Assembly (NCBI GenBank): GCA_964392305.1
Contig: CAYMPV010000008.1
Span: 1-64,000, forward strand
Length of the DNA stretch: 64,000 nt
From: an uncultured candidatus Brocadiaceae bacterium
GTDB taxonomy: Bacteria > Planctomycetota > UBA1135 > UBA2386
Reading direction: 5' to 3'
Shown here: piece by piece, positions 46,926 through 64,000 of the stretch
How the letters are laid out: every line of letters starts with the position of its first letter
Numbering within the stretch: position 1 is the stretch's first letter
The notes under the pieces: model-generated
Seen by the model: only the letters and a program-made list of their open reading frames with translations
Databases searched by the model: none
Told to the model about the DNA's origin: nothing
Program-made: the position numbers and the translations under genes

Positions 46926-47468
46926 TCAGCCACCGTCCGGACCCTTCTCCCGCGTCGGCTTCGCCGCGTACGCCGCCGAACCGCCGCGCGGGATCGACAG
47001 GCTGCGCCACGCGTCACCGGCGAAGCCGCGCGCGAGCAGCACGATCTGCCCGGTGTGATACGCGACGTGGGCGACCGAGCGCAGCAGCGCTTCGTGCACG
47101 GTCAGGGGCTGCTGGCGGATGGTGACGTTCTTGGCGAACGCGTCGGGGCCCGCCGCCGCGACGCTGTCGAGCGCCGCGTCGACGACAGCCCAGGCCTGTT
47201 GCCACGCGACGAGCAGTGCCGCGCGATCCGCCGTGGGTTCTTCGAACTCGCGATCGCGTTGCCGCCAGGGCTTCTCACCGTCGCTGGTCAAGAAGTCCGT
47301 GAAGCGCGAATGCAAGTTGCCGGACAGGTGCTGCAGCACGACGGCGATGGAGTTGCCCTGCGGGTCCGGGCACCGATGCAGATCCGCGTCCGTGACCTGC
47401 TCCAGCGCCAGTTCGCACAGGCGCCGGTAGCGTCGGTACTCGGTGCGGATCGCGTCGAGCTGCGGCAT
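46926..47468 (-). CDS. DinB/DUF1572-like four-helix-bundle protein
   Basis: His-containing motifs (VLQHLSGNLH…HVAYHTGQI) typical of the DinB_2/DUF1572 superfamily. Confidence 0.55.
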   Translation of the reverse strand: MPQLDAIRTEYRRYRRLCELALEQVTDADLHRCPDPQGNSIAVVLQHLSGNLHSRFTDFLTSDGEKPWRQRDREFEEPTADRAALLVAWQQAWAVVDAALDSVAAAGPDAFAKNVTIRQQPLTVHEALLRSVAHVAYHTGQIVLLARGFAGDAWRSLSIPRGGSAAYAAKPTREKGPDGG

Positions 47469-49345: not shown

Positions 49346-49427
49346 CGGCGCATGTTGACGCGTCTTCGGTGGGGCGGCGAGGGGAATCGCGATTGACTGG
49401 GTGGGGCCTGGGTCCGACCGTTCTGCG

Positions 49428-51010: not shown

Positions 51011-52126
51011 ATGAAGCTGTTAGCTCACGCTGCCGTGATGCTGCTCGCTGCCGGGCTCGTCGCGCAGAGCGGCAAGCCTCCGGCCAGCCCAGCCACGGCG
51101 GCCTACGACAAGATCGTCGCCGAATGGAAGGCGACGACCGATGCGTACTCGGCGGCCATCAAGGCGATCACCGCCACCGACGAGTACAAGAAGGCCGTCG
51201 CCGACCGCGACCAGAAGGCCCTCACCGCGCTGCGCAGCGGCGTGTCGACGCCGGATGCCAAGCCGCTGGCCGAGCGGTGCCTGCAGACCGCTGCCCAATT
51301 CGATGGCGACGAGCGCGTGCCGTTCTACGCGTGGGTGCTGCAGAACGGCGGCAAGGAAGCCGCTGCGACGGCTGCCGAGAAGCTGCTCGCCGATCACGTC
51401 AAGAGCCCCAAGCTGCTGAGCGTGGTGGAGAGCGGGTCGATGTTGCTGCGATCGCTCGGCCAGGACGCGGGGCAGGAGTTCCTCGCCAAGATCGCCACCG
51501 AGAACCCCAACGACGAGATCCGCGCCTACGCGCTGTTCTGGCCGGCCTACATGGCCTCGCGCGCCAAGGACATCAGCGCCGAGGCCAAGGAAGCCGCGGC
51601 GGCGAAGATCGCCGAAGCGCGTAAGCTCGCCGATGGCACGTTGCTCGCCGACCGCATCGACGCGCCCAAGTTCATCGAGGAGCGTCTGCAGATCGGCATG
51701 GAAGCGCCGGACATCGTCGGCGAGGACGTCGACGGCGTGCCGTTCAAGCTCTCCGACTACCGCGGCAAAGTGGTGGTCATCGACTTCTGGGGATTCTGGT
51801 GAGGCCCTTGCCGGGCCATGATCCCGCACGAGCGGTCGCTCGTGGAGAAGTTGAAGGACCAACCCTTCGCGCTGATCGGTGTGAACAGCGACAAGGACAA
51901 GAGCTACTACGCGCAGCAGCAGCAGGAGATGGGCGTCTCGTGGCGCTCCTTCTGGTGCGGTGAGAAGGGCACTGGCGGTGCCATTCCGACGAAGTGGGGC
52001 GTCACCGGCTGGCCGACGATCTACATCCTCGACCACAAGGGTGTGATCCGCTTCAAGAACCTGCGCAACGAGAAGATGGAAGAAGCCGTCGTGCAGTTGC
52101 TCGAAGAGATGAAGAACGGCGACTGA
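51011..52126 (+). CDS. periplasmic TlpA/ResA-like thioredoxin-fold protein, candidate selenoprotein (in-frame TGA at 51800-51802 = Sec in a W-U-G-P-C redox motif)
   Basis: ORFs 51011..51802 and 51818..52126 are in the same frame. The translation reads …KVVVIDFWGFW-[TGA]-GPCRAMIPHERS…, the canonical thioredoxin WCGPC site with TGA replacing the first Cys codon. Hairpins sit immediately 3' of the TGA. Signal peptide MKLLAHAAVMLLAAGLVAQ. Confidence 0.6.
51803..51844 (+). promoter_or_regulatory. candidate bacterial SECIS element
   Basis: GGCCC-uugcc-GGGCC starts directly after the UGA. CACGAGC-GGUC-GCUCGUG (7-bp stem, GGU in the apical loop) begins 24 nt after the UGA, within the 16-37 nt window typical of bSECIS. 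Confidence 0.4.
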
Positions 52127-52975: not shown

Positions 52976-53755
52976 ATGGCATCGGCCACGATCCAACGTT
53001 CGTCAGACCAGGAACTGCAGAGCCGCCTGTATCAGCTGCATGAGCTGACCGGCGACGTGACCCTGCTGCGCCTTGCGCAGCAGTTGCCGCCGTTCGCCGG
53101 CGCGAACATGGCCAGCGCCGAAGAACGCCGCGACTGGGTCGACACGTGCCTGATGAACGCGTTCCGCAACGGCCGCGACTCCGAGGTGTTCGCGCTGCTG
53201 TTCGAACGCAACCGCGGCGAGTTCCTGTCCTGGATCAAACGGCACATCCGCCATCAGCCGCGCCTGGACGCCAACGACGTGCTGCAGCAGGTGTTCCTGA
53301 ACATCTGCCGCTATCCGGACCGGTTCGTCGCCGATCGCGCCGGCGCCTTCCGCATCTGGGGGCAGCGCATCGTGCGCAACACCGTGATCGGACTGGTCGA
53401 AGCCACCAGGCGTCAGCCGCGGTCGCTGCTGCACGACGACGACCTCGTGGAGGATCCCGTGGATCGGCACAACCCGTCGCCGGACGTCGCGGCGCTGCAG
53501 CACGAGGCTGCGGCCGTCGTCGATCATGCCTACCTGCTGTTCCTCGGCCTCTACCTGCGCCACTTCGAACAGCTGTCCGCCAGGGAGCAGCGGGCGTTGA
53601 CCATGGTCGAGGTCGAACAGCGCAGTTACCGCGAGGTCGCCGAACAGCTGGGGATGAGTCTGGCCAACGTCAAGATGATGATCTTCCGCGCCCGGCGACG
53701 CATCACCAACGGCGCAACGCTGTCGCTGCAGCTGTTGGGTGCAGACATGGCTTGA
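52976..53755 (+). CDS. ECF-type RNA polymerase sigma factor
   Basis: Region 2 (…DVLQQVFLNICRYPDRF…) and region 4 (…LSAREQRALTMVEVEQRSYREVAEQLGMSLANVKMMIFRARRR…). Confidence 0.75.
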   Translation: MASATIQRSSDQELQSRLYQLHELTGDVTLLRLAQQLPPFAGANMASAEERRDWVDTCLMNAFRNGRDSEVFALLFERNRGEFLSWIKRHIRHQPRLDANDVLQQVFLNICRYPDRFVADRAGAFRIWGQRIVRNTVIGLVEATRRQPRSLLHDDDLVEDPVDRHNPSPDVAALQHEAAAVVDHAYLLFLGLYLRHFEQLSAREQRALTMVEVEQRSYREVAEQLGMSLANVKMMIFRARRRITNGATLSLQLLGADMA

Positions 53756-54059
53756 TGCGGCAGTCTGCAGGGATGCAGTGCCGCGGGCTCGTGTTCGGCG
53801 GCTTGGTGCGCAGCGTGCGCCTGCCGAGCGCACCGTCGCGTGTCGCTCGAGCGCACCGTCGCGCCGTTTGCCGCGGGAGGCTGCCCCCATTGCGTGGCCA
53901 CACCGGGCTGCTGAGCGTACTGCTCGAATACGTAAGCGGCCCTCAACTGTGAGGCAAAGCCACCAACCCCTTCGCGGTAGCGAGGGGGTGTCTCTGGCCG
54001 GTCCGGTGGTGCCGGCGCTCGTTTCCGTTCTGCCTGCTCGCAGGCCCCATGGAGATGCC

Positions 54060-54488
54060 ATGACCCCGACACGGAAGCCTGCCAAGGCGAAAGATCAGAT
54101 CCTCGACGACCACCGCCAGATCGGCGCCCTGTTGTCGCAAATCCCCAGTTCCGGCAGCGCGGCGCGGACCGTCGACCTGCTGCAGACCCTGGTGCCGTTG
54201 CTGCGGCGTCACTTCCAGGAAGAGGAGGCGGAGATCAGCGGCCTGCACGCGGTGATCCAGCGGCGCACGCCACACCTCGTCTACGCGTTGCAGGACCTCA
54301 AGCGGGACCACACCGAGCTACTGCAGATCGCGCAGGAGCTGTTGGCACTGGCTGGCTCCGCCGACGTCGACGAGGCGCAGCTGCGGCGGCGTGGCCGTGA
54401 GCTCAAGGACGGCATCGCCGTGCACGAGACCAAGGAGACCGAGCTGTTCGTGGACTCGATCTGGACCGACCTGGGGGAGTGTGACTGA
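54060..54488 (+). CDS. hemerythrin-like (HHE cation-binding) domain protein
   Basis: …DHRQIGALL…LRRHFQEEE…HETKETELF… spacing of hemerythrin His/Glu ligands. Confidence 0.6.
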   Translation: MTPTRKPAKAKDQILDDHRQIGALLSQIPSSGSAARTVDLLQTLVPLLRRHFQEEEAEISGLHAVIQRRTPHLVYALQDLKRDHTELLQIAQELLALAGSADVDEAQLRRRGRELKDGIAVHETKETELFVDSIWTDLGECD

Positions 54489-56395
54489 TGACCAGCACGA
54501 CCCAAGGCGCTGGCGCGACGGCTGCCCGAACGAGCAAGGCGCAGGCGCATCGTGTGCGTGAGCACATCGTCGAGATCGTCAGCGATTCGGGTGAGGGCGC
54601 GCAGAAGGCCGGGCAGACCTATGGCGCGGTCAGCGCCAAGATGGGCAACGGCGTCTGGACGGTGGAGATCATCCCCGCGGAGATCAAGCCGCCGGCGCGC
54701 TCGAGGGCCGGCGCCAGCGGCATCCGTGTGCGCGTCGGTGTGGAGAAGGTCACCAACACCGGTGATCAGGCCGATCTCGTCGTCGCGCTCAACGAGCAGG
54801 TGCTCTACGGGCGCATCGAGCAGAAGGCCTACAAGCCGGGCACGATCGTGCTGCTCGAGAGCAAGTGGGCAAAGGACCCTCGCGAAGAGGTGCGACGCGA
54901 CTACGCCGCTGCGCTGCTCGAGTTCCGCGCGCTGGGCCTCGACGTGCGTGAGGTCGCGCTCGAGGAGGCCTGCCAGCAAGTCGCCCAGGACGTGCGGGTC
55001 GGCAAGAACATGTTCGTGCTCGGCCTGCTCTGTTACATCACCTGTCGCGACCTCGATCGCGCCATGGAAGAGGTTGCGTTCGTGTTCGCCAAGAAGGGCG
55101 CGCAGGTGATCGCGCGCAACCAGGACCTGGTGCGTGCCGGTCACGCGTTCGGCGCGCAGGTCCTGGAGCAGCGCTACGAGATCCCGCCGCGCGAAGTGAC
55201 GCGGCGGATGATGGTGCTGAACGGCAATCAGGCGATCGCGCTCGGCGTGATGGCCGCCGGCATCGAGATGGTGGCGATGTATCCGATCACGCCGGCGACT
55301 TCGGTGTCGCACCATCTGGCCAGCGCCTTCCGCGGCGTCGGCGGCGTGGTGCACCAGGCCGAGGACGAGATCGCTGCGATCGGCTTCGCGATCGGCGCGT
55401 CGTACGCGGGCAAGACCGCGTGCACGGTGACTTCCGGGCCCGGCCTCGCGCTGAAGACCGAGTTCCTCGGGCTGGCGGTGATGGCCGAGGTGCCACTCGT
55501 GTTCGTGCTGGTGCAGCGCGGCGGTCCGAGTACGGGCCTGCCCACCAAGGTCGAGCAAGGTGACCTGTTAGCGGCGCTCTACGGCCAACCAGGCGATACG
55601 CCGAAGATCGTGATCGCCCCGGCGACGATCGAGGAGTGTCTGCACTTCGTGGTCACCGCACGCAAGCTCGCCGAGGCGTTCCGCATGCCGGTGATGCTGC
55701 TGACCGACGCCAATCTGGCCACCGGTGTGCAGCCGATTCCGCGGCCCGAGGTGTCGGCCGACTGGCTGTCCCCACCGCTGGATCAGGCGCCGTGGCAGCG
55801 CGATGTCACCGCCTACGACTGGGACCCGGACACCGGCCTGTCGCCGCGGCCGATCCCTGGCCAGAAGGGCGGGGAGTACGTGCTCACCGGGCTGGCGCAC
55901 ACCAAGAACGCCAAGGTCGCCTATGACCCCGATTCCAACCAGACCGGCTGTGCGATGCGCAGCCGCAAGCTGGCGGTGTTCGGCGAATCGCTGCGGCCGC
56001 CGCAGGTGCACGGCGATCCCGACGGCGACCTGCTGGTCGTCGGCTGGGGTTCGACGCTCGGCTCGATCGAAGAGGCCGTCGACCGCGCGCGCGCCGAAGG
56101 GCACCGCGTCTCCTCGCTGCACCTGCGCTTCCTGTCGCCGCTCGAGCCGGGCCTGGCGGCGATCTTCAAGCGCTTCCGCCGGGTGGTCACCGTGGAGATC
56201 AACTACAGCGACGCGTCCGGCGCGCCACACGTGACCGCCGACAACCGCCGCATCGCGCAGCTCGCGCAGCTGCTGCGCACCCACACGCTGATGGACATCG
56301 ACTGCTGGTCCAACGTGGCCGGTCAGCCGATCCAACCGGGGGCGATCCACACCGAGGTCTTGCGCCGATTGCAGGCGCTGCGAGGAGAATCGTGA
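54488..56395 (+). CDS. korA: 2-oxoacid:ferredoxin oxidoreductase, fused gamma/alpha subunit
   Basis: N-terminal gamma-like domain then the alpha Pyr domain (…GNQAIALGVMAAGIEMVAMYPITPATSVSH…EDEIAAIGFAIGASYAGKTACTVTSGPGLALKTEFLGLAVMAEVPLVFV…). ATGA overlap with the preceding gene. Confidence 0.85.
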   Translation: MTSTTQGAGATAARTSKAQAHRVREHIVEIVSDSGEGAQKAGQTYGAVSAKMGNGVWTVEIIPAEIKPPARSRAGASGIRVRVGVEKVTNTGDQADLVVALNEQVLYGRIEQKAYKPGTIVLLESKWAKDPREEVRRDYAAALLEFRALGLDVREVALEEACQQVAQDVRVGKNMFVLGLLCYITCRDLDRAMEEVAFVFAKKGAQVIARNQDLVRAGHAFGAQVLEQRYEIPPREVTRRMMVLNGNQAIALGVMAAGIEMVAMYPITPATSVSHHLASAFRGVGGVVHQAEDEIAAIGFAIGASYAGKTACTVTSGPGLALKTEFLGLAVMAEVPLVFVLVQRGGPSTGLPTKVEQGDLLAALYGQPGDTPKIVIAPATIEECLHFVVTARKLAEAFRMPVMLLTDANLATGVQPIPRPEVSADWLSPPLDQAPWQRDVTAYDWDPDTGLSPRPIPGQKGGEYVLTGLAHTKNAKVAYDPDSNQTGCAMRSRKLAVFGESLRPPQVHGDPDGDLLVVGWGSTLGSIEEAVDRARAEGHRVSSLHLRFLSPLEPGLAAIFKRFRRVVTVEINYSDASGAPHVTADNRRIAQLAQLLRTHTLMDIDCWSNVAGQPIQPGAIHTEVLRRLQALRGES

Positions 56396-57348
56396 TGTTC
56401 GGACTCAAGGACGACTGGGAACTGGAAGTGCCCGAGCGCTACTTCACCCTCGAGGACTACGAGGGGGGCACCGCACGCTGGTGTCCTGGCTGCGGTGACC
56501 TGGCCGTGCTCACGTCCGTGCAGCGCATCTGCCGCGACGAGCAACTGCCGCCCGAGCAGACCGTGTGTGTGTCGGGCATCGGCTGCAGCAGCCGCTTCCC
56601 GCACTACATGAAGACCTACGGCTTCCACGGCCTGCACGGCCGCGCGCTGCCGGTGGCCTGCGGCGTCAAGTCGCGTCGGCCCGATCTCACCGTGTGGGTC
56701 GCCACCGGCGATGGTGACTGCTGCTCGATCGGCGCGGGGCACTGGGTGCACGCCATCCGCTACAACATGGACATGGTGGTGATGTTGTTCGACAACGCCA
56801 TCTACGGGCTGACCAAGAACCAGACGTCGCCGACCAGCCCGCAGGGGCTGCACACCAACACCCACCCGCGCGGCGCCTGGTTGCCGCCGCTCAATCCGAC
56901 GGCGGCGACGCTCGGCTTCGCCAACGTCTCGTTCGTGGCGCAGACCGTCGATTGGAACCCTGCGCACCTCTACGCGACGCTCAAGTGCGCCTACCAGCAC
57001 AAGGGGCTCAGCTTCGTGCGCATCATGCAGCGTTGCCCGACCTACACCCCGCAGGTGTTCGCGGAGATGCAGAAGGACCCGTCGCAGCTGCTGCTGCTCA
57101 CGGGTGGTGACAACCCCCAACTGGACGCTGCCACGACGCGCACCTTCCCCAACCAGCTGGCGCACGACAGCCGCGACCTCGCTGCCGCGCGCGCGGTCGC
57201 CGAGCAGCACGAGCCCCTGCCGATCGGCGTGCTCTATCGCGATCCCGATCGGCCGCGCTACGAGGACTTCACCACGGTGGGGCTGGGCATGTCCGACGGC
57301 GACAAGTTGGCCGGACTCGAACGCGAACTCGACAAGTTCTCGGTGTGA
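56392..57348 (+). CDS. korB: 2-oxoacid:ferredoxin oxidoreductase beta subunit (TPP-binding)
   Basis: WCPGCGDLAV…GIGCSSRFP…intact GDGD…N TPP motif (VATGDGDCCSIGAGHWVHAIRYNMDMVVMLFDNAIYGLTKNQ). Start overlaps the korA stop. Confidence 0.85.
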   Translation: MMFGLKDDWELEVPERYFTLEDYEGGTARWCPGCGDLAVLTSVQRICRDEQLPPEQTVCVSGIGCSSRFPHYMKTYGFHGLHGRALPVACGVKSRRPDLTVWVATGDGDCCSIGAGHWVHAIRYNMDMVVMLFDNAIYGLTKNQTSPTSPQGLHTNTHPRGAWLPPLNPTAATLGFANVSFVAQTVDWNPAHLYATLKCAYQHKGLSFVRIMQRCPTYTPQVFAEMQKDPSQLLLLTGGDNPQLDAATTRTFPNQLAHDSRDLAAARAVAEQHEPLPIGVLYRDPDRPRYEDFTTVGLGMSDGDKLAGLERELDKFSV

Positions 57349-59663
57349 CCACGATGACGCGGACCGAACCTTCGAACGCCGGCGCGCTTCGCGAACTGCG
57401 GCGCTGGCACCTGGGCGGCGGCACTGCGGCGCCGTTGCCTGCGGACGCCGTGCCGCTGCTGCTGGCGCCGTTCCGCGATCCGGCGCGGGTGCGCCACGAC
57501 TATCCACTGGTGTTGCGTCGGGTGGACGGCGCTCTCGAGGCGCGGCCGCTCGGTGATCTCCTGCCCGAGTGGTTGGCCGGCGCGAAGACCCAGGCGCGGG
57601 TGCTCGTCGACAACAGCCACCGGCTGGAGCGGCGGGTGCGGCTACAGGTCGCGCACGAACCCGACCGCGACGCGCGGGAGCTGCTGCGTGAGGCCGGCGC
57701 GCAGATGCTGGCGGAAATGCAGCTGCACAGTGAAGTCGAGTCGGCCGTGCGCGCCGACTACGACGCAATCTGCGCCGAGCTGCCCGACTTCGAGCTGTTG
57801 CCGCTGCGTAGCGAGACCGCGCTGGGTTTGCTGCAGACCGCGATCTCACAGCGCGTGGGCTCGGCCCGCGCGCAGTTCGCGGCGCACGTCCGCGATCTGG
57901 TCGGGGCGCTGCAGGCGCTGCTGCAGATCGAGGCGCAGAAGGACCCCGCCGCGCACTCCGCGCAGGCGGTCGGACGCAGTCTCGGCGGCGCCGCGGTGCA
58001 GTTCTTCGACGCCGGCGCGCTGGCGCGCACCGTCGGCCCACACCGCGGCACGGTGCGCGTCGATCCGGCCCGCCGGGCTCGCGTGCAGCAGGCGTTGACG
58101 ACGCTCGAGAGCCACCTCGTGGCCTCGCACGCGCCCGAGTGCGTGGTCGTTGCAAGCGATGCGGCCATCCGCTTCGACGGTCTCGCCGCGGACCTGCTGG
58201 CGACGGTGCGCGCCGCGCGGCTCGCCGAGCTCGAACGTCGCGGCGCCTACGACCCCGAGCGACACGACGCGCTGCTCGCCGCACTGGGCTGGCAAGAACT
58301 CACCCCCGAGGAACTGGCGATCCTGCCGGTTGTGGTGATGCAGACTTCGGTCACCGAGCTCGCCAACCACGGCCTGCAGTCACTGATGCAGCTGCTGGTG
58401 TCGGGGCGCCCCGTACAAGTGCTCGTCGAGGAGTCGCCGGGTCGCGATCCGATGTCGATGGACGGGGCGCCGCGTGTGCGGCTCGAACTGGGTTATCTCG
58501 GTATCGCCTGCCGCGAGGCGTTCGTCCAGCAGTCGACCGCGGCGCGGCCAGCACATCTGCTGCGCGGCTTCGAGCGCGCCTTGTGCGGCATGCGCACGGG
58601 TCTGCACCTGGTCGACCCGGGCCTCGACGCGATGCATCGCGAACCGCCGCTGGGTTCGTTCCTGCACGCGGGCGCGGCGATCGAAGGTCGCGCGCAGCCG
58701 CTGTTCCAATACGACCCGGCGGGCGGCGAGACCTGGGCACGCCGTCTCGACTTCGCCGGCAATCCGGCGCCCGACGCGGATTGGCCGGGCGTCGATGGAG
58801 GCAGCGCGGCCGGCGGGACCCAGGTGTTCACCTTCGCCGACTACTCGCTGCTCGAGCCGCACCTTCGCGACGCATTCGCCTTGGTGCCCGCAGAACTGGA
58901 CAGCACCGATCTCGCGCCGATCGCGGCGTTCTTGCAGCTCGACGACGACGCGGCCCGGCGCAGCATCCCGTTCGTCGTGTTCGTCACCGGCGACGGCACG
59001 CAGGGGCGCGCTGCCGTGCGCCGCTGGCTGGTGCACGCCTGCCGCGACCGGCTGCGTTACTGGCGCACGCTGCAGGAGCTGGCCGGGGTGCGCAACGAAC
59101 ACGTTCGTGAGGCCGTGCAGTTGGCGCGCCGCGAAGCCGCCGAGCAGGCCACGCGCGAGCGCGCGGCGCTGGCGCAGGCGCACGCCACAGAGCTGGCCGC
59201 GGTGCGTGAGCAGGCGACGGCGACGGCGATGCAGGGGCTCGCGCGCATGTTGCTGGAGATCGACCCGCTCGGCGAGGCCGTTGCTGCGGCGCCAGTCGTC
59301 TTGCCACGCGCGGCGACGTCGGCCGCGCCTGTTGCCGCGGCCGCGACCGCACCAACGACGGTTCTCGTGCCCGCCGCAGCGGCGGTGCCGGCCGCCGTGG
59401 ACGAAGACGACTTCGACGAACCCTGGATCGACTCGCCGCGCTGCTCGACCTGCAACGACTGCGTCAACCTCAACTCCCTGATGTTCGTCTACGACGCGAA
59501 CAAGCAGGCGCGCATCGCCGACCCGCGGGCCGGCACCTACGCGCAGCTGGTGCAAGCGGCCGAGAAGTGCCCGTCCCGCTGCATCCACCCCGGCAAGCCG
59601 CTGAACCCCGACGAGCCCGACCTGCAGGCGCTCGTCGCGCGCGCGGCGCCATTCAACACCTGA
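57345..59663 (+). CDS. hypothetical 772-aa protein with a PFOR C-terminal-like module and an atypical Cx2Cx2C…CP Fe-S motif
   Basis: …FVVFVTGDGTQG… TPP-loop remnant. LFQYDPAGGETWARRLDFAGNPAPD resembles the PFOR domain-VI end (LF-YDPR…NP). C-terminal CSTCNDCVNLN…EKCPSRCIHPG. C-terminal region is paralogous to the 1287-aa protein (WRTLQELAGVR…AHATELAAVR). Confidence 0.55.
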   Translation: MTTMTRTEPSNAGALRELRRWHLGGGTAAPLPADAVPLLLAPFRDPARVRHDYPLVLRRVDGALEARPLGDLLPEWLAGAKTQARVLVDNSHRLERRVRLQVAHEPDRDARELLREAGAQMLAEMQLHSEVESAVRADYDAICAELPDFELLPLRSETALGLLQTAISQRVGSARAQFAAHVRDLVGALQALLQIEAQKDPAAHSAQAVGRSLGGAAVQFFDAGALARTVGPHRGTVRVDPARRARVQQALTTLESHLVASHAPECVVVASDAAIRFDGLAADLLATVRAARLAELERRGAYDPERHDALLAALGWQELTPEELAILPVVVMQTSVTELANHGLQSLMQLLVSGRPVQVLVEESPGRDPMSMDGAPRVRLELGYLGIACREAFVQQSTAARPAHLLRGFERALCGMRTGLHLVDPGLDAMHREPPLGSFLHAGAAIEGRAQPLFQYDPAGGETWARRLDFAGNPAPDADWPGVDGGSAAGGTQVFTFADYSLLEPHLRDAFALVPAELDSTDLAPIAAFLQLDDDAARRSIPFVVFVTGDGTQGRAAVRRWLVHACRDRLRYWRTLQELAGVRNEHVREAVQLARREAAEQATRERAALAQAHATELAAVREQATATAMQGLARMLLEIDPLGEAVAAAPVVLPRAATSAAPVAAAATAPTTVLVPAAAAVPAAVDEDDFDEPWIDSPRCSTCNDCVNLNSLMFVYDANKQARIADPRAGTYAQLVQAAEKCPSRCIHPGKPLNPDEPDLQALVARAAPFNT

Positions 59664-59670
59664 GGCGGCG

Positions 59671-60501
59671 ATGAGCGACGTGCTGATGGCCGGAGCGATC
59701 ATGGCGGGCCTGGGCGTGCTGCTCGGCGCGATGCTCGCGTTCGCCTACCGGTTCCTGCGTGTGCCCGAGGACCCGCGCACCGCTCGTGTCGAACAGTTGC
59801 TGCCCGGTACCAACTGCGGCGGCTGCGGCGAGCCGGGTTGCCGCGCGTTCGCCGAAGCGCTCACCGCCGGCGCGCGACAGCCGTCGGGCTGCACGGTCGC
59901 CGGTCCTGATGCGGTGGCCGCGATCGCGACCTTCCTCGGAGTCGATGCGGGCACGAGCGATCGACGCGTCGCGCGGCTGCATTGCGCCGGCGGCAAGGCC
60001 CAGGCGGTGCAGATCGCCGCCTACGACGGTTTCGCGAGCTGCCGCGGTGCGCACGTCACCGGCGGCGGCGGCAAGGGTTGCAGCTGGGGCTGCCTGGGCC
60101 TCGCCGATTGCCAGCGCGCCTGCGACTTCGGCGCGATCACGATGAACGACAACGGTCTGCCGGTCGTCGACGTCGACAAGTGCACCGCGTGCGGCGATTG
60201 CGTCGTCGCCTGCCCGCGCGACCTGTTCGAGCTGTTGCCGATGCGGCAGCCGCTGCTGGTGCAGTGCCGCGTGCCGCTCGCCGGCGAGGCGGCGCGCAAC
60301 CTGTGCGCGGTGGCTTGCGACGCCTGCGGCCGCTGCGTGCAAGACGCCCCAGAGGGATTGTTGCGCATGGTCGACAACCTGCCGGTGGTCGACTACGCGA
60401 GTGTCGTCGACGCCGGGCCGACGCCGACGTTTCGCTGCCCGACCGGCGCCATCCAGTTCGTCGCCAGGACTCAGTTCGCGCGGCAGGAGGTGCGTGCATG
60501 A
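59671..60501 (+). CDS. rnfB: RnfB-like membrane-anchored Fe-S protein (stand-alone)
   Basis: N-terminal TM helix. RnfB signature LPGTNCGGCGEPGCRAFAEAL. Two 4Fe-4S ferredoxin motifs (CTACGDCVVACP, CDACGRCVQDAP). Confidence 0.75.
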   Translation: MSDVLMAGAIMAGLGVLLGAMLAFAYRFLRVPEDPRTARVEQLLPGTNCGGCGEPGCRAFAEALTAGARQPSGCTVAGPDAVAAIATFLGVDAGTSDRRVARLHCAGGKAQAVQIAAYDGFASCRGAHVTGGGGKGCSWGCLGLADCQRACDFGAITMNDNGLPVVDVDKCTACGDCVVACPRDLFELLPMRQPLLVQCRVPLAGEAARNLCAVACDACGRCVQDAPEGLLRMVDNLPVVDYASVVDAGPTPTFRCPTGAIQFVARTQFARQEVRA

Positions 60502-63500
60502 GGTTCTCCGTCGAAACGCCGTCGCGCGCCGAGTTGCCGATCGCGGGTTGTCTGTTGGCGTCCGGCGACGCGCGGGCTGACCTGGCCCAGGCGATGGGGC
60601 GCTGCGAAGCGGGCCAACGCGCGACCGCCGTGATCGCGGGTGCGGAGCTGATGCGGGTCGCCGACCTGCTGCAGGACGCGGCCCGGCGCCAGCTCGCCTG
60701 CGTGGTGCGCACCGCCCTGACCGACGGCGACGACGCGCTGTTCACAGTCGCCGACAGCGGCGCCGTCGTCTTGGTCGCGCGCGGTGACGAGGTGCCGGTC
60801 GTGCACTTGATCGCACGACTGCTCGCGGAACGCGCGCTGCTGCCCGTGGTGCTCGTGGCGGCGCCCGCGACGGCCGACGCCGCGCCTCGCGAACTGCCTG
60901 CGGCGGCGCTCGAACTGCTCGGCGCACCCGAGGACTTCGTGCGTTCGGCGACGCCCTCGCAGGAGCATCTGTTCGGTCGCGATCGGCGCCGCGTGGTGCG
61001 TTGGTTCGACCTCGAACGGCCGGTGTTGCGCGGCCAGCGGGCGCAGCCGGCCGTGGCCACGCTGCAGCGCGCGGGTTTCGGGCCGTTCGTGCAGGCGCCG
61101 GTCCGGACGCTGCTGCAGGACGTCGCCGCCGAGGTCCAGCTCGCAACGGGGGCCACCTGGTCGGCCGTGGACACTGCGAACTGCGATCGCGCCGAGGTGC
61201 TCGTGATCGGCCTCGCCGGCGTCACCGCGGCGCTGCCCGCCGACGGCAAGACGTCGCGCGTCGGGTGCGTCACCATCAACTGTCTGCGACCGTTCCCGGA
61301 GTCCTGGCAGGCACACCTGCGCGGCAAGAAGGCGGTCGTCGTGGTCACCGCAGCGGTCAACGCGCTCGCCGAGGCGCTGCTGCTACGTGAAGTGCGCGCC
61401 GCGCTGGTGCGTGAGCAGACCGAGGCGCGCGCCGCGCGTCGGCCGTTCAAGGACAAGGAGGTACCGTCGCTGCACGTGGCGGTAACCGCGCGCGCCGATG
61501 GCGGCGTGTCGCCAGAGGAACTCGCCGCGTTCGTGCGTGAGTGCGGCGAAGGTGCGGGGCGTCCGTTCGTGCACCTGGGCGTCGCGTTCGCGCCGCTGGA
61601 CGTCGCCTCGCGCAAGCGGCTGGTGCTGCACGAAGCGCTGCGCCGCTCACACCCTGGCATCGAGAGGCTCGGGGCGCGCCTGGCCCCGGCCGCCGCGCTC
61701 GCGGTGGTGCCGTCCGCACCACGCCGTGTCGCCGCACCCGCGCAGATCGCTCCGACCCACGACGATCGACTGCGCGCCTGGGATGTAGTCGCTGCGGCCT
61801 CCGTGGCCGGCACGACGGCGGACCTGGGCCCCGATCCGTACCTGACGGCCGGTTCCGCGCCGGCGCTCACGTCGCTGTTCCGCGGCAACGCCGCGACCGA
61901 CAATCTGCCGGCGTTCACGGCGCAACGGTGCACCGGCTGCGGTGCGTGTTGGACCGCCTGTCCCGACGCGGCCCTGCTGCCGGCGGTGGTCGGGGCCGGC
62001 GAACTGATCGAATGCGGCATGGCAGCGGTCGCGGCGACAGGTGCCACTGCCGAAGCACTGCGACCCGTTGTCGCGCGAATCGCCAAGGCGTTGCCCAAGG
62101 CGATCGCTGCGGGTGCCTGCACGGCGGGTGCCGCGGTGCACGGCGCGAGCGCGACCGCTCTCGCCAAACTCGACGAGTCGCGTCGGGGCGCGGCGCAGCA
62201 GGCTGCGGCAGCGGTCGCCGACGCACTCGCAGCGTTGCCGGTCGTCGGTGGCATGCCGTTCGCCGACGGTCAGCCGCTGGTGCTGGCGCTCGATCCCGAC
62301 GCCTGCAAGGGTTGCGACTTGTGCGTGACGGCCTGCGAACCCGGGGCGCTGCAGCGCGGAGCACGTTCGGCCGAGGCCGTGCAGCAGGCGCGCGCCGGCG
62401 CGGCGGCCTGGCGGGCGTTGCCCGACACGGCCGGCGCAGTGATCCACGCGGCGCGTGAACTGTCCGAGCCCGGCCTGCTCGGCGCGCTGGAGTTGTCGCG
62501 GCACTGCCTGCTGACGATGGCGCCCGGCGACGACGCCGAACCCGGCAGCGGTGCGCGGCTGGCGCTGCGCACCGTGCTGGCGGTGAGTGAAGCCCATCTG
62601 CAGCCCAAGTTGCTGCGCCACGTGCAGCACCTCGACGAGCTCGCGGCGAAGTTCGGCGAACGCATCCGCGGGATGCTCGCGGGGGCCTTGCCGGTGACCG
62701 ATCTCGAGGCGCTGCACGAAGGCCTGGCCACGCTGGGCGCCGGCGCTGTGGCCTTGTCGACGCTGGCGAGCCGTCTCGACGAGGTGCAGGTCAGTGGGCG
62801 GGTCGACGGCGGCAAGTTGCAGCTGCTGGTCGAGACCGCGCGCGCCGTCGCCGATCTGCGTTGGCGTGTGCAGCAGGGCCGCAACGGTTGCGGCCGCGCG
62901 CGCAGCGGCCTGGTGCTCGCCGGCGGCGAGGCCGAGGCGTTGGCCGGCGACTTCCCCTGGAATCCGTTCGCGTCGCCCGCTGTGCTCGACGGCAGCCGCG
63001 AGGCGGGGGCGCGCGCCCTGGGGATGCTGCGCGGACAGGTTGCGGCGTTGGCCGCGAACTTCGCGTTGCTGCGCCGCGCCGAGTCGCTGTTGCAGCAAGG
63101 TGCGCCAGGGCCACGTCACCTGGGCTTCGCCGAGCTGGAGCCGGCCGAACGCGAGTTGTGCCCGCCGCTGTGGCTGGTCGTCGACGGCGACGCCTTGCGG
63201 TGCGGCGGTCTCGCGCAGCTCGCCGCGGTCCTGGCGCACGACCTGCCCGTCAAGGTGCTGTTGCTCTCGCCATCGACCACCGCGGTCGATGGCCCGTCGC
63301 CGGCGCGCCTCGCGCTCGCGTTCCCGCGGGCGTTCGTGCTGCAGTCGACCGTCGCGCACCGCGATCACCTCGCGGCTGGTGTGCTCGCCGCGTGCGAACA
63401 TCCGGGACCGGCCCTGGTGCACGTGCTCGCGCCGAGCCCACGCGCCGCCGGCGCGGCGCCCGACCGTACGCTCGCCATCGCCGCCGACGCCGTCGCTCGG

Positions 63501-63845
63501 CGCGCCTTCCCGCTGCTGCGCTACGACCCGCGGTTGCCGGGCGCGTTCGGCCAGAAGCTGTCGCTCGACGGCAATCCATCGCCGCAGCAGCCGGGCACAG
63601 ACGACCCCGAGCACCTCGCCGCGTGGCAGCTGCTGCAGGAACTCGCGGGCGTGCGCACGCCGTTCACCCACGTGGTCGAAGAACGGGCTGCGGCTGCGGT
63701 CGCCGCCGCACACGCGCAGGAACTCGCGGCCATGCGCGCCGCGCACGAAGACGAACTGCTGCGACTGCGCAGCAGTGTCGAGACCGAACTGCTGGCCCGG
63801 TTGCAGCGCAAGCTGACGACGCTGGCGGCGGGAGCGCGGCCGTGA
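60498..63845 (+). CDS. single-chain pyruvate:ferredoxin oxidoreductase (PFOR/NifJ)-like protein with degenerate catalytic motifs (possible pseudo-enzyme)
   Basis: Domain I/II-like N-terminus (…TINCLRPFPESWQAHLRGKKAVVVV…). Two ferredoxin motifs (CTGCGACWTACP, CKGCDLCVTACEP). TPP-domain remnant LWLVVDGDALRCGGLAQLAAVLAHDLPVKVLLLSPS (GDG to DGD, no NTGGQ). PFOR-type C-terminus LLRYDPRLPGAFGQKLSLDGNPSP. ATGA overlap with rnfB, GTGA overlap with the next gene. Confidence 0.65.
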   Translation: MRFSVETPSRAELPIAGCLLASGDARADLAQAMGRCEAGQRATAVIAGAELMRVADLLQDAARRQLACVVRTALTDGDDALFTVADSGAVVLVARGDEVPVVHLIARLLAERALLPVVLVAAPATADAAPRELPAAALELLGAPEDFVRSATPSQEHLFGRDRRRVVRWFDLERPVLRGQRAQPAVATLQRAGFGPFVQAPVRTLLQDVAAEVQLATGATWSAVDTANCDRAEVLVIGLAGVTAALPADGKTSRVGCVTINCLRPFPESWQAHLRGKKAVVVVTAAVNALAEALLLREVRAALVREQTEARAARRPFKDKEVPSLHVAVTARADGGVSPEELAAFVRECGEGAGRPFVHLGVAFAPLDVASRKRLVLHEALRRSHPGIERLGARLAPAAALAVVPSAPRRVAAPAQIAPTHDDRLRAWDVVAAASVAGTTADLGPDPYLTAGSAPALTSLFRGNAATDNLPAFTAQRCTGCGACWTACPDAALLPAVVGAGELIECGMAAVAATGATAEALRPVVARIAKALPKAIAAGACTAGAAVHGASATALAKLDESRRGAAQQAAAAVADALAALPVVGGMPFADGQPLVLALDPDACKGCDLCVTACEPGALQRGARSAEAVQQARAGAAAWRALPDTAGAVIHAARELSEPGLLGALELSRHCLLTMAPGDDAEPGSGARLALRTVLAVSEAHLQPKLLRHVQHLDELAAKFGERIRGMLAGALPVTDLEALHEGLATLGAGAVALSTLASRLDEVQVSGRVDGGKLQLLVETARAVADLRWRVQQGRNGCGRARSGLVLAGGEAEALAGDFPWNPFASPAVLDGSREAGARALGMLRGQVAALAANFALLRRAESLLQQGAPGPRHLGFAELEPAERELCPPLWLVVDGDALRCGGLAQLAAVLAHDLPVKVLLLSPSTTAVDGPSPARLALAFPRAFVLQSTVAHRDHLAAGVLAACEHPGPALVHVLAPSPRAAGAAPDRTLAIAADAVARRAFPLLRYDPRLPGAFGQKLSLDGNPSPQQPGTDDPEHLAAWQLLQELAGVRTPFTHVVEERAAAAVAAAHAQELAAMRAAHEDELLRLRSSVETELLARLQRKLTTLAAGARP

Positions 63846-64000
63846 AACTGCCGTTCACGCTGCGCAGCTTCGCCCACGGCGTGCATCCGAGCGACCACAA
63901 GCAGGGCACCGAGAACCTGACCATCGAGCACATGCCGTTCGTGTCCCGTTACGTGTTGCCGCTGGCGCAGGGCGGCAAGCCGGCCGTGCCCGTCGTGCGG
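63842..64000 (+). CDS. rnfC: RnfC-like protein, 5' fragment (truncated by window end)
   Basis: GTG start. VKLPFTLRSFAHGVHPSDHKQGTENLTIEHMPFVSRYVLPLAQGGKPAVPVV parallels the RnfC N-terminus (…FNGGIHPPEMK…VPLAQ…IPL…). Confidence 0.5.
   Translation, partial: MKLPFTLRSFAHGVHPSDHKQGTENLTIEHMPFVSRYVLPLAQGGKPAVPVVR

What the first reader, a model, noticed from the sequence alone, without database searches (positions are those of the whole stretch)
54488..64000. Unusual electron-transfer cluster: korAB OFOR + two degenerate PFOR-derived paralogues + orphan rnfB + rnfC-like
A canonical two-subunit 2-oxoacid:ferredoxin oxidoreductase (fused gamma/alpha KorA plus KorB with an intact TPP GDG…N motif) is tightly coupled by ATGA/GTGA overlaps to four further genes. 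These are a 772-aa protein, an RnfB-like membrane Fe-S protein, a 1287-aa single-chain PFOR-like protein and an RnfC-like gene. No rnfADEG genes are visible in the window. The 1287-aa protein keeps PFOR domain order (I/II, two 4Fe-4S motifs, TPP domain, the LLRYDPRL…NP tail) but has lost the GDG and NTGGQ TPP-binding residues. This suggests a non-catalytic PFOR scaffold or electron-wiring subunit. Such an assembly could wire 2-oxoacid oxidation through RnfB/RnfC-type modules to NAD(H) or the membrane. I do not recognise it as a described complex.
Basis: partly seen in the sequence, partly recalled or inferred. Interest (0 to 1): 0.9.

Follow-up and report, generated by a model that had tools for sequence, protein, structure and literature searches.

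The report
Rnf operon with KorAB and pseudo-PFORs
The window holds the first half of a ten-gene operon, conserved across many bacterial phyla, that joins a 2-oxoglutarate:ferredoxin oxidoreductase and a complete Rnf ion pump with two catalytically dead relatives of pyruvate:ferredoxin oxidoreductase, which probably act as built-in electron wiring.

Summary
The genes exist as described, with two corrections. The "1287-aa" protein is really 1115 aa: it starts at ATG 60498, overlapping the rnfB stop. rnfB is also not an orphan. An assembly identical to the window continues with rnfC-D-G-E-A, so the operon is korA-korB-X-rnfB-Y-rnfCDGEA.

This order recurs in at least 41 loci from Planctomycetota, sulfur-oxidising Gammaproteobacteria, Acidobacteriota, Eisenbacteria, Myxococcota and others.

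Y has a PFOR fold and keeps the two domain-V [4Fe-4S] motifs. It has lost the TPP motifs, the proximal-cluster cysteines, the domain-I catalytic loop and the CoA domain. These losses appear in 73 of 78 relatives.

X is a paralogue of the C-terminal half of PFOR. It carries a ferredoxin domain on a disordered Ala/Pro-rich linker of about 50 residues.

KorAB and all the Rnf subunits look intact.

Best reading: a dedicated, reversible 2-oxoglutarate/NAD(H) module built on an ion pump. X and Y would be non-catalytic electron conduits or scaffolds. This is inferred from sequence, not shown.

Two papers noticed parts of the arrangement and annotated the genes as PFOR. None describes the unit as a whole or its degeneracy. 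I rate it a new variant of known systems, of moderate to high interest.

The parts
52976..53755 (+). ECF-type sigma factor gene (259 aa). Possible regulator of the operon. Its association is weaker than that of the hemerythrin gene.
   Evidence: Sigma70_r2 and Sigma70_r4_2 domains. Its 3' end overlaps the start of the hemerythrin ORF. An ECF sigma gene also lies near the operon in L081 and L083.
53739..54488 (+). Hemerythrin-domain protein (ORF up to 249 aa; start uncertain). Its stop shares one base with the korA ATG. Candidate O2/redox sensor or protector.
   Evidence: PF01814 Hemerythrin, E 8e-10. A homologous gene lies directly upstream of korA in 13 loci, and also in L082 and L084.
54488..56395 (+). 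korA: fused gamma/alpha subunit of a two-subunit 2-oxoacid:ferredoxin oxidoreductase (635 aa).
   Evidence: POR, POR_N and PFOR_II domains. TIGR03710 scores 507.6 bits, above its cutoff. The best solved relative is Magnetococcus marinus 2-oxoglutarate:ferredoxin oxidoreductase 6n2n_A, E 1e-79.
56392..57348 (+). korB: TPP- and [4Fe-4S]-binding beta subunit (318 aa), intact.
   Evidence: TPP_enzyme_C, E 8.5e-27. The GDGD...N motif and the Cys31, Cys34, Cys65 and Cys215 motifs (CPGCG, GIGCS, CPTY) are present. Best solved relative is 5b48_B, E 6e-49.
57345..59663 (+). X: pseudo-PFOR paralogue (772 aa from GTG 57345; 769 aa from ATG 57354). It is equivalent to the C-terminal half of a long PFOR: domain V without cysteines, a degenerate domain VI, domain VII and a long helix.
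   Evidence: hhalign of X against the Y/long-PFOR profile gives probability 100%, E 4.7e-57. BLASTP aligns X292-484 with Y860-1035, E 7e-10. The AF2 model has pLDDT 87.6, and its top Foldseek match is PFOR 6cip, E 1e-5. It has no GDG motif and no proximal-cluster Cys.
59259..59408 (+). Ala/Pro-rich flexible linker of X, about 50 residues.
   Evidence: pLDDT is below 50 at residues 636-685. The linker is 39-61 aa (median about 50) and rich in A/P/S/T/G/V in the 32 of 39 homologues that carry the ferredoxin domain.
59427..59588 (+). C-terminal single-cluster ferredoxin domain of X (CxxCxxC...CP).
   Evidence: PF13370 Fer4_13, E 2e-6. D. africanus ferredoxin I matches by sequence (1dax, E 0.007) and by fold (1fxr, TM 0.81).
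59671..60501 (+). rnfB: membrane-anchored polyferredoxin subunit of Rnf (276 aa, 20 Cys).
   Evidence: PF04060 FeS, E 2.5e-13, plus Fer4 domains. TIGR01944 rnfB scores 79.8 bits, above its cutoff of 68.7.
60498..63845 (+). Y: pseudo-PFOR (1115 aa) with domains I, II, V, VI and VII plus a C-terminal helix. It has no domain III, no TPP site and no proximal cluster.
   Evidence: Collinear with D. africanus PFOR 1b0p. AF2 model pLDDT 83.6, pTM 0.82. Top Foldseek matches are PFOR 6cin (E 8e-24) and 1b0p (E 1e-19). TIGR02176 scores 25.7 bits against a cutoff of 911. Motif losses are documented.
61929..61964 (+). Y, first [4Fe-4S] motif: CTGCGACWTACP (Cys478, 481, 484, 488).
   Evidence: Invariant across all 28 aligned family members.
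62304..62336 (+). Y, second [4Fe-4S] motif: CKGCDLCVTAC (Cys603, 606, 609, 613).
   Evidence: Invariant across all 28 aligned family members.
62520..62558 (+). Y, degenerate proximal-cluster site: APGDDAEPGSGAR where intact PFORs have GxGACxGCGE.
   Evidence: Alignment with intact long PFORs. The E-x-GSG replacement is conserved in the Rnf-linked family.
63162..63212 (+). Y, degenerate TPP/Mg site: PPLWLVVDGDALRCGGL where intact PFORs have GGDGAxxDIGF. The downstream NTGGQ segment is deleted.
63842..64000 (+). rnfC, first 52 codons. The gene runs off the window edge.
   Evidence: RnfC_N, E 5e-8. The full 447-aa RnfC, followed by RnfD, RnfG, RnfE and RnfA, is on the identical contig L001.

Best explanation
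The region is the 5' two-thirds of a single ten-gene operon: korA-korB-X-rnfB-Y-rnfC-rnfD-rnfG-rnfE-rnfA. A hemerythrin gene and an ECF sigma gene precede it.

Shown by sequence:
- KorAB is an intact two-subunit 2-oxoacid (most likely 2-oxoglutarate):ferredoxin oxidoreductase. It has no ferredoxin domain of its own.
- RnfBCDGEA is a complete ferredoxin:NAD+ oxidoreductase of the ion-pumping type.
- X and Y are two paralogous descendants of a 'long' PFOR of about 1650 aa that ends in a ferredoxin domain. Both have lost everything needed for TPP catalysis.
- Y keeps only the two [4Fe-4S] clusters of domain V.
- X keeps only the terminal single-cluster ferredoxin, held on a flexible arm of about 50 residues.

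Inferred mechanism: X and Y act as non-catalytic electron conduits and scaffolds, possibly as a pseudo-PFOR heterodimer formed through their homologous C-terminal helices. They would connect the single cluster of KorB to the RnfB polyferredoxin. The operon would then work as one reversible device. In one direction it runs 2-oxoglutarate + CoA + NAD+ -> succinyl-CoA + CO2 + NADH with ion export. In the other, it synthesises 2-oxoglutarate using NADH and the ion gradient. Neither direction would depend on a free ferredoxin pool.

The direction cannot be decided from sequence. I lean towards oxidative, energy-conserving use in heterotrophs such as this probable planctomycete, and towards reductive or bidirectional use in sulfur-oxidising autotrophs.
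For: Completeness of Rnf:
- Genes were called on contigs identical to the window.
- The flavinylation motifs SAAT (RnfD) and TGAT (RnfG) are present. So are the paired Cys of RnfA and RnfE, and the 51K, SLBB and 2x[4Fe-4S] modules of RnfC.
- ApbE lies downstream in about 10 related loci.

Functional linkage:
- Start/stop overlaps occur at four of the five junctions inside the window.
- The eight-gene colinear order appears in 41 of 76 loci, and rnfB<Y<rnfC in 54 of 76. Many of the rest are truncated contigs. The loci come from Planctomycetota, Gammaproteobacteria, Eisenbacteria, Acidobacteriota, Myxococcota, Rhodothermales and Krumholzibacteriia.
- The same context is found when starting from X homologues.

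Degeneracy is ancient and conserved:
- 73 of 78 Y-type ORFs lack both NTGGQ and CxGCGE, yet all but two fragmentary ORFs keep two CxxCxxCxxxC motifs.
- The domain-I YPITPST loop and the catalytic Glu are lost.
- No POR (CoA) domain is detected in Y or in three longer homologues.

Ancestry:
- L081 has an intact 1672-aa long PFOR, with Fer4_13, in the Y position.
- L011, L053, L061, L064 and L082 carry an extra long PFOR in the operon; its catalytic motifs were confirmed intact in the first four.

Tethered ferredoxin:
- In the one such locus examined (L082), an X without the ferredoxin domain is followed by a long PFOR that carries Fer4-type domains.

Folds.

Expression:
- In Endoriftia the adjacent genes KorA(3), KorB(3) and 'PFOR-like ferredoxin' fall together under sulfide limitation, with log2FC of -2.62, -2.57 and -1.91 (PMC11636981 supplement).
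- That the last gene is an X homologue is my inference from its position and name.
Against: - There is no experimental or structural evidence that X, Y, KorAB and Rnf touch each other. No multimer prediction could be run.
- Operon membership alone would also fit a looser relation, with free ferredoxin shuttling between KorAB and Rnf and with X and Y doing something else.
- In Thiocystis violacea (L050) korAB is divergently oriented and X was not detected, so the unit is not indivisible.
- The global TM-score of Y against PFOR is low (0.32). The domain arrangement may therefore differ from PFOR.
- The substrate of KorAB is assigned by homology only. KorB scores below the TIGR02177 cutoff (238.6 against 261.9).
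Confidence: 0.6

Rival explanations
1. Y is a working pyruvate (or other 2-oxoacid):ferredoxin oxidoreductase that feeds Rnf, as assumed when a PFOR gene was noted between rnfB2 and rnfC2 in the Solemya velum symbiont. The operon would then simply encode two OFORs and an Rnf.
For: - Y has a PFOR fold and PFOR domain order.
- Some lineages do have an intact long PFOR at or near this position (L081, L011, L053, L061, L064).
- The Solemya velum symbiont paper (PMC4287430) proposed pyruvate as the donor.
Against: - In the window protein and in 73 of 78 relatives, the GDGxxxD and NTGGQ TPP/Mg motifs are absent.
- The CxxC of the proximal cluster, the domain-I PITPS loop and catalytic Glu, and the CoA-binding domain III are also absent.
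- TIGR02176 scores 25.7 bits against a cutoff of 911.
Confidence: 0.04
2. KorAB and Rnf cooperate only through the soluble ferredoxin pool. X and Y are not electron carriers between them. Instead they are protective, regulatory or assembly factors, for example oxygen shields or stabilisers of KorAB, in the way domain VII stabilises D. africanus PFOR against O2.
For: - A hemerythrin gene (a class of O2/NO-binding proteins) recurs directly upstream of korA.
- Many hosts are aerobes or microaerophiles.
- X and Y retain the domain VII-like LLRYDP...GNP segment.
Against: - Purifying selection has kept exactly the Fe-S ligands (8 invariant Cys in Y; CxxCxxC...CP in X) while everything else catalytic decayed.
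- The ferredoxin domain sits on a conserved flexible tether. That is the design of a mobile carrier, not of a shield.
- Y lies between rnfB and rnfC with overlapping start and stop codons.
Confidence: 0.17
3. X and/or Y are neofunctionalised enzymes. The remodelled pocket would bind a different cofactor or substrate, so the operon would couple Rnf to a reaction other than 2-oxoacid oxidation.
For: - The replacement motif (G)GDxAEPGSG is itself highly conserved. This suggests a selected function at the former cluster/TPP site.
- About 150 invariant positions are spread over Y in the close family.
Against: - No known cofactor-binding signature was detected in Pfam or NCBIfam.
- Conservation at the remodelled site is equally expected for a protein-protein interface.
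- KorAB already supplies a complete catalytic unit.
Confidence: 0.12
4. The adjacency has no functional meaning: a korAB operon happens to sit beside an rnf operon.
For: In one isolate (Thiocystis violacea, L050) korAB is on the opposite strand and is separated from rnfB by succinate dehydrogenase/fumarate reductase-like genes.
Against: - The same order and strand are kept across at least seven phylum-level groups.
- The genes are translationally coupled.
- X is found only in this context in every locus examined.
Confidence: 0.03

Closest known systems
Rnf complex (ferredoxin:NAD+ oxidoreductase, RnfABCDGE), e.g. Acetobacterium woodii, Clostridium tetanomorphum, Azotobacter vinelandii Rnf1
   Same: - All six subunits are present with their cofactor motifs.
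- The gene order rnfB...CDGEA is that of the Chlorobi/Bacteroidetes-type operon (PMC4014512).
- A. vinelandii Rnf1 sets a precedent for an extra cytoplasmic subunit (PMC12174285).
   Different: - A 1115-aa pseudo-PFOR gene is inserted between rnfB and rnfC.
- korAB and a second pseudo-PFOR are fused to the front of the operon.
- No described Rnf has such partners.
[quoted passage not shown]
   Same: - KorA has the fused gamma-alpha architecture.
- KorB has TPP and a single [4Fe-4S] cluster.
- There is no delta/ferredoxin subunit.
   Different: Here KorAB is encoded in one operon with an Rnf pump and with proteins that could replace the soluble ferredoxin partner.
Single-chain PFOR (Desulfovibrio africanus 1b0p, Moorella thermoacetica 6cin) and the uncharacterised 'long' PFORs of about 1650 aa (e.g. 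Rhodopseudomonas palustris BisB18 ABD86276)
   Same: - Y shares the fold and the order of domains I-II-V-VI-VII.
- The two domain-V clusters are kept.
- X and Y share the long-PFOR-specific C-terminal helix. X also shares the Fer4_13 tail.
   Different: - Y and X lack the TPP/Mg motifs, the proximal cluster, the catalytic Glu and PITPS loop (Y), and the CoA domain III.
- They are pseudoenzymes.
Swinging-arm carrier domains on Ala/Pro-rich linkers (lipoyl domains of 2-oxoacid dehydrogenase E2); an analogy from my own knowledge
   Same: A small redox or carrier domain is tethered by a disordered Ala/Pro-rich linker of about 50 residues to a large scaffold that works with a 2-oxoacid-oxidising enzyme.
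   Different: The carrier here is a [4Fe-4S] ferredoxin, not a lipoyl domain. There is no evidence yet that it moves between sites.
2-Oxoglutarate:NADP+ oxidoreductase KorABC of Azoarcus evansii (from my own knowledge)
   Same: A KorAB-type enzyme is hard-wired to a pyridine nucleotide through an extra redox subunit instead of free ferredoxin.
   Different: That enzyme is soluble and does not conserve energy. Here the link would pass through a membrane ion pump and pseudo-PFOR subunits.

Membership tests
Rnf complex (RnfABCDGE) | All six subunit genes present in one cluster | tested here: met
   rnfB and the 5' end of rnfC are in the window. rnfC, D, G, E and A are on L001 and L002. L001 is 100% identical to the window over the 7399-nt overlap.
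Rnf complex (RnfABCDGE) | Covalent-FMN attachment motifs (S/T-G/A-A-T) in RnfD and RnfG; conserved Cys pairs in RnfA and RnfE | tested here: met
   RnfD has SAAT at 172-175 and RnfG has TGAT at 181-184. RnfE has GMCP and VNCL; RnfA has GLCP and TNCA.
Rnf complex (RnfABCDGE) | RnfC with an NADH/FMN (51K) module and two [4Fe-4S] motifs; RnfB with an N-terminal anchor, FeS domain and ferredoxin repeats | tested here: met
   Pfam domains on the called genes. For RnfB, TIGR01944 scores 79.8 bits against a cutoff of 68.7.
Rnf complex (RnfABCDGE) | Ion-translocating ferredoxin:NAD+ oxidoreductase activity | not testable with these tools
   Needs membrane biochemistry.
Two-subunit 2-oxoacid:ferredoxin oxidoreductase (KorAB/OFOR) | Alpha subunit matches the family model above its curated cutoff | tested here: met
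   TIGR03710 scores 507.6 bits against 482.75. 6n2n_A matches at E 1e-79.
Two-subunit 2-oxoacid:ferredoxin oxidoreductase (KorAB/OFOR) | Beta subunit matches the family model above its curated cutoff | tested here: inconclusive
   TIGR02177 scores 238.6 bits, below the cutoff of 261.9. However, 5b48_B matches at E 6e-49 over residues 29-292.
Two-subunit 2-oxoacid:ferredoxin oxidoreductase (KorAB/OFOR) | TPP/Mg motif GDG(X)n N and four Cys for the single [4Fe-4S] cluster in the beta subunit | tested here: met
   GDGD at 106-109 is followed by DNAIYGLTKNQ. The Cys motifs are CPGCG, GIGCS and CPTY.
Two-subunit 2-oxoacid:ferredoxin oxidoreductase (KorAB/OFOR) | Specificity for 2-oxoglutarate | not testable with these tools
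   Only homology supports it: the best solved relative is an OGOR.
Pyruvate:ferredoxin oxidoreductase (single chain, TIGR02176), applied to Y | Match to the family model above its cutoff | tested here: not met
   25.7 bits against a cutoff of 911.35.
Pyruvate:ferredoxin oxidoreductase (single chain, TIGR02176), applied to Y | TPP/Mg binding motifs GDGxxxD and NTGGQ in domain VI | tested here: not met
   Both are absent. The NTGGQ segment is deleted.
Pyruvate:ferredoxin oxidoreductase (single chain, TIGR02176), applied to Y | Proximal [4Fe-4S] ligands (CxxC...) | tested here: not met
   GACxGCGE is replaced by DDAEPGSG. Only 8 Cys are invariant, and all lie in domain V.
Pyruvate:ferredoxin oxidoreductase (single chain, TIGR02176), applied to Y | Domain I catalytic Glu and PITPS substrate loop; CoA-binding domain III | tested here: not met
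   The loop is deleted and EPEGEH has become SGDAR. There is no PF01558 match, whereas the intact long PFOR P0023 has one at 99 bits.
Pyruvate:ferredoxin oxidoreductase (single chain, TIGR02176), applied to Y | PFOR fold and two domain-V [4Fe-4S] motifs | tested here: met
   Foldseek gives 6cin at E 8e-24 and 1b0p at E 1e-19. Both CxxCxxCxxxC motifs are invariant.
Single-cluster ferredoxin (Fer4_13, D. africanus Fd I type), applied to the X C-terminus | Domain match and cluster ligands | tested here: met
   PF13370 scores 28.6 bits against a cutoff of 24.5. 1fxr matches with TM 0.81. The CxxCxxC...CP pattern is present.

The most novel reading that the evidence does not exclude
KorAB, X, Y and RnfBCDGEA assemble into one membrane-bound supercomplex. 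A pseudo-PFOR heterodimer (X and Y) and a swinging-arm ferredoxin hard-wire 2-oxoglutarate oxidation, or synthesis, to an ion pump. The result would be a ferredoxin-independent, ion-motive 2-oxoglutarate:NAD+ oxidoreductase. Run backwards, it would let aerobic or microaerobic bacteria drive reductive carboxylation from NADH plus the membrane potential. It would also be a clear case of a metabolic enzyme duplicated and stripped down to serve as wiring.
Probability: 0.3. Interest if true: 0.85.

Novelty: new variant of a known kind. Interest (0 to 1): 0.62.

Why it matters
Rnf is a central coupling site in anaerobic and nitrogen-fixing bioenergetics. It is always drawn as working on a free ferredoxin pool.

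A widespread operon that builds an OFOR and two dead PFOR paralogues into the rnf operon suggests a dedicated donor/acceptor module for Rnf. The X family alone has 1457 clusters (at 50% identity) with E<=1e-30. The hosts include aerobes and major sulfur-oxidising autotrophs and symbionts.

If the reading is right, three things change:
- How the 2-oxoglutarate step of the TCA or reverse TCA cycle is budgeted energetically in these organisms.
- The meaning of the 'PFOR-like' genes seen in symbiont transcriptomes.
- A common annotation. These genes are labelled PFOR, '4Fe-4S binding protein' or 'ferredoxin', and pyruvate has been inferred as the donor.

It would also be a clean example of pseudoenzymes recruited as electron wires.

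Tried and rejected
- Treating the 1287-aa TTG ORF as the gene. Rejected in favour of the 1115-aa ATG start.
- 'Orphan rnfB'. Rejected once the downstream DNA was fetched.
- Y as an active PFOR. Rejected on motif, domain and model-score grounds.
- Literature. Four full-text searches and reading of six papers found only partial mentions (PMC4287430, PMC11636981). The Rnf reviews and evolution papers read (PMC12174285, PMC4014512) do not mention the arrangement. The Biegel 2011 review is not held.
- Context of the R. palustris long PFOR (P0025). It could not be retrieved.
- The rest of the window. Pfam scans of neighbouring genes found a sulfatase, DUF1572, a Kelch protein, an SSF transporter, an MCP, Dus and others. 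These give no metabolic clue beyond pointing to a planctomycete-like host. One Pfam call failed because I gave a bad coordinate.
- The 334-aa protein in the X position of L081. It shows only faint similarity to X, so calling it a 'mini-X' is tentative.
- SECIS-like folding downstream of the in-frame TGA at 51800. It is not statistically distinctive.

Full report
**What is in the window**

Six co-directional genes fill 54488-64000 on the + strand of a ~70% GC window, and the called frames have GC3 of 0.88-0.91.

- korA (54488-56395, 635 aa) has POR, POR_N and PFOR_II domains. It passes the curated 2-oxoacid:acceptor oxidoreductase alpha model (TIGR03710, 507.6 bits against 482.75). Its closest solved relative is the Magnetococcus marinus 2-oxoglutarate:ferredoxin oxidoreductase (6n2n_A, E 1e-79).
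- korB (56392-57348, 318 aa) has TPP_enzyme_C, an intact GDGD...N motif and the four cluster cysteines.
- A 772/769-aa ORF, here called X (57345 or 57354 to 59663), matches only Fer4_13, at its extreme C-terminus.
- rnfB (59671-60501) follows.
- A large PFOR-like ORF, here called Y, comes next.
- The first 52 codons of rnfC start at 63842.
- The junctions are GTGA, GTGA, a 7-nt gap, ATGA and GTGA.

First, the '1287-aa' protein is an over-extended TTG ORF that overlaps rnfB by 520 nt. The real gene starts at ATG 60498 and encodes 1115 aa. That start overlaps the rnfB stop, coincides with the N-termini of homologues, and gives the exact product on record in public assemblies.

Second, rnfB is not an orphan. 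Two Logan contigs carry the identical Y protein. One of them is 100% identical to the window over 7399 nt. Both continue downstream: L001 carries rnfC (447 aa, with RnfC_N, 51K, SLBB and 2x Fer4), rnfD (335), rnfG (220), rnfE (215) and rnfA (191), while L002 ends within rnfG.

RnfD and RnfG carry the flavinylation motifs SAAT and TGAT. RnfA and RnfE carry their conserved cysteine pairs. The unit is therefore korA-korB-X-rnfB-Y-rnfCDGEA, with a complete Rnf.

**Y is a dead PFOR**

- Y is collinear with D. africanus PFOR.
- Its AlphaFold model (pLDDT 83.6, pTM 0.82) finds single-chain PFORs as top structural matches: 6cin at E 8e-24 and 1b0p at E 1e-19.
- It scores only 25.7 bits on the PFOR equivalog model, whose cutoff is 911.
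- I aligned it with intact 'long' PFORs of 1635-1690 aa, for example Rhodopseudomonas palustris BisB18. Against these, Y has lost four things:
  - the CxxC of the proximal cluster (GACxGCGE has become DDAEPGSG);
  - the GDGxxxD motif;
  - the whole NTGGQ segment;
  - the domain-I YPITPST loop and the catalytic Glu.
- It has no CoA-binding domain III.
- Only eight cysteines are invariant. These are the two CxxCxxCxxxC motifs of domain V.

The degeneracy is not peculiar to this genome. Of 78 related ORFs, 73 lack both NTGGQ and CxGCGE, and all but two fragmentary ORFs keep both cluster motifs.

**X is a second dead PFOR paralogue**

- Profile-profile comparison aligns X residues 31-645 with Y residues 452-1114 (probability 100%, E 4.7e-57). 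X thus corresponds to domain V (without cysteines), domain VI (without TPP motifs), domain VII and a long C-terminal helix.
- Its model (pLDDT 87.6) matches PFOR domain VI.
- After the helix comes a disordered Ala/Pro-rich linker (pLDDT below 50 at residues 636-685). A ferredoxin I-type single-cluster domain follows (1fxr, TM 0.81).
- In 32 of 39 homologues this domain is present on a 39-61-residue linker, with a median of about 50.
- For one of the seven without it (P0085, locus L082), the gene context was checked and an additional long PFOR lies next to X.
- Some X relatives of about 1300 aa still carry degenerate domains I and II.
- The X family is large: 1457 representative clusters at E<=1e-30 among 1.84 billion.

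**Conservation of the operon**

A scan of species-representative genomes with the Y alignment returned 78 loci. I then ran tblastn with the ten operon proteins.

| Measure | Count |
|---|---|
| Full colinear korA-korB-X-rnfB-Y-rnfC-rnfD-rnfG order | 41 of 76 loci |
| rnfB<Y<rnfC | 54 of 76 loci |

Most of the remaining loci are truncated contigs.

The hosts include:
- Planctomycetota (the closest relatives, at 57-81% identity);
- Chromatiaceae, Sedimenticolaceae, Achromatium, Thiohalocapsa and invertebrate symbionts;
- Candidatus Eisenbacteria;
- Acidobacteriota and Thermoanaerobaculia;
- Myxococcota;
- Rhodothermales;
- Krumholzibacteriia.

Starting from X homologues leads to the same context.

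Variants show the likely history. L081 has an intact 1672-aa long PFOR, with POR, TPP_enzyme_C and Fer4_13, in the Y position, and ApbE after rnfA. Several Eisenbacteria and Acidobacteriota loci carry an extra intact long PFOR between X and rnfB. X and Y therefore look like duplicated long PFORs stripped down in complementary ways: Y kept the domain-V clusters and X kept the ferredoxin tail.

**Accessory context**

- In the window, a hemerythrin-domain gene ends one base into the korA start codon. An ECF sigma factor gene precedes it.
- A hemerythrin gene sits directly upstream of korA in at least 15 loci.
- ApbE follows rnfA in about 10 loci.
- Sedimenticolaceae loci add genes for a ferredoxin, a fumarate-reductase-like flavoprotein and a NuoF-like protein upstream.
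- Thiocystis violacea has SdhB-like and CCG-domain genes between a divergent korAB and rnfB.
- These neighbours point to the succinate/2-oxoglutarate segment of the TCA or reverse TCA cycle, and to oxygen or redox control.

**Mechanism (inferred)**

KorAB-type enzymes have one cluster and no ferredoxin domain, so they need an external carrier. RnfB is the ferredoxin-facing side of Rnf. X and Y have kept precisely their Fe-S ligands, a flexible tether and large conserved surfaces, and have lost all catalytic residues.

The simplest explanation is that they are dedicated conduits and scaffolds between KorB and RnfB. They may form a pseudo-PFOR heterodimer through their homologous C-terminal helices. 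The operon would then be a reversible, ion-coupled 2-oxoglutarate/NAD(H) device.

The direction cannot be read from sequence. The genes and their integrity or degeneracy are shown by sequence, structure prediction and comparative genomics; no protein was examined experimentally. The physical association and the electron path are inferred.

**Prior knowledge**

- A Riftia symbiont transcriptome study lists adjacent KorA(3), KorB(3) and a 'PFOR-like ferredoxin' that decrease together under sulfide limitation (PMC11636981).
- Neither paper recognises the ten-gene unit or the pseudoenzyme nature. The Rnf reviews I could read do not mention it.
- Public annotations call Y '4Fe-4S binding protein' and X 'ferredoxin'.

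**Verdict**

The wiring interpretation is plausible and now rests on broad synteny and on conserved, selective degeneracy. It is a new variant of known systems (Rnf plus OFOR), not a new category. Interest is moderate to high because the unit is widespread, mis-annotated and directly testable.

Noticed in passing
window 51011-52126 (+), TGA at 51800-51802: Two same-frame ORFs (the N-terminal part of an AhpC/TSA protein, then Thioredoxin_8) are separated only by an in-frame TGA. Reading through gives ...DFWGFW-U-GPCRAM..., a thioredoxin-fold WCGPC motif with the first Cys replaced by UGA. This is a candidate selenocysteine (UxxC) TlpA/ResA-like protein. Hairpins lie at +4 and +30 nt, but the folding z-score is only -1.15. 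No tRNA-Sec is present in the window.
   Followed up: partly
window 52976-54488 (+): An ECF sigma factor gene overlaps a hemerythrin-domain gene, whose stop shares a base with the korA ATG. A hemerythrin gene directly upstream of korA recurs in at least 15 related loci (Planctomycetota, Eisenbacteria and others). This suggests O2/redox sensing or protection tied to the operon.
   Followed up: partly
L081:1145-16288: Variant operon: korA-korB-(334-aa protein with faint similarity to X)-rnfB-intact 1672-aa long PFOR (POR_N, POR, TPP_enzyme_C, Fer4_13)-rnfCDGEA-(59 aa)-ApbE. This is probably the ancestral, catalytically active state of the Y position.
   Followed up: partly
L011:3883-8979, L053:3729-8921, L061:3493-8640, L064 (ORF ending at 8824), L082:11507-16666: Eisenbacteria/Acidobacteriota-type loci carry an additional long PFOR of about 1700 aa between X and rnfB, on top of the degenerate Y. 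The CMGCG, GDGAMLD and NTGGQ motifs were confirmed intact in L011, L053, L061 and L064; for L082 only Pfam domains were seen. X in these loci lacks its own ferredoxin tail.
   Followed up: partly
L012:72-3449, and equivalent positions in L015, L027, L039, L071: Sedimenticolaceae and symbiont loci have three extra genes upstream of korA: a 4Fe-4S dicluster protein, a 540-aa FAD_binding_2 flavoprotein (fumarate reductase/succinate dehydrogenase-like) and a 416-aa NuoF-like protein (51K plus NADH_4Fe-4S). This hints at a linked NADH:fumarate step.
   Followed up: partly
L050:3-9468 (Thiocystis violacea DSM 208): In the only isolate genome among the hits, korBA is divergently oriented and X was not detected. 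SdhB-like (Fer2_3 plus Fer4) and CCG-domain genes lie between korA and rnfB-Y-rnfCDGEA.
   Followed up: partly
L001:11762-12283 (173 aa, just downstream of rnfA; outside the window): A predicted protein with no Pfam match and a hydrophobic C-terminal half follows rnfA. It is conserved in the closest planctomycete locus (L003). ApbE, which follows rnfA in other lineages, is absent here.
   Followed up: no
proteins P0189, P0193, P0178, P0207 (X-family representatives): Some X-family members are 1100-1565 aa long. They retain weak POR_N and PFOR_II domains N-terminal to the X region, but no domain-V Fe-S motifs. X therefore also descends from a full-length PFOR.
   Followed up: partly
window 46926-47468 (-) and 49401-50894 (+): Genes for DUF1572 (DinB-like) and a sulfatase lie in the window. 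Together with ~70% GC and the nearest relatives of Y and X being Planctomycetota MAGs, this suggests the window comes from a planctomycete.
   Followed up: no
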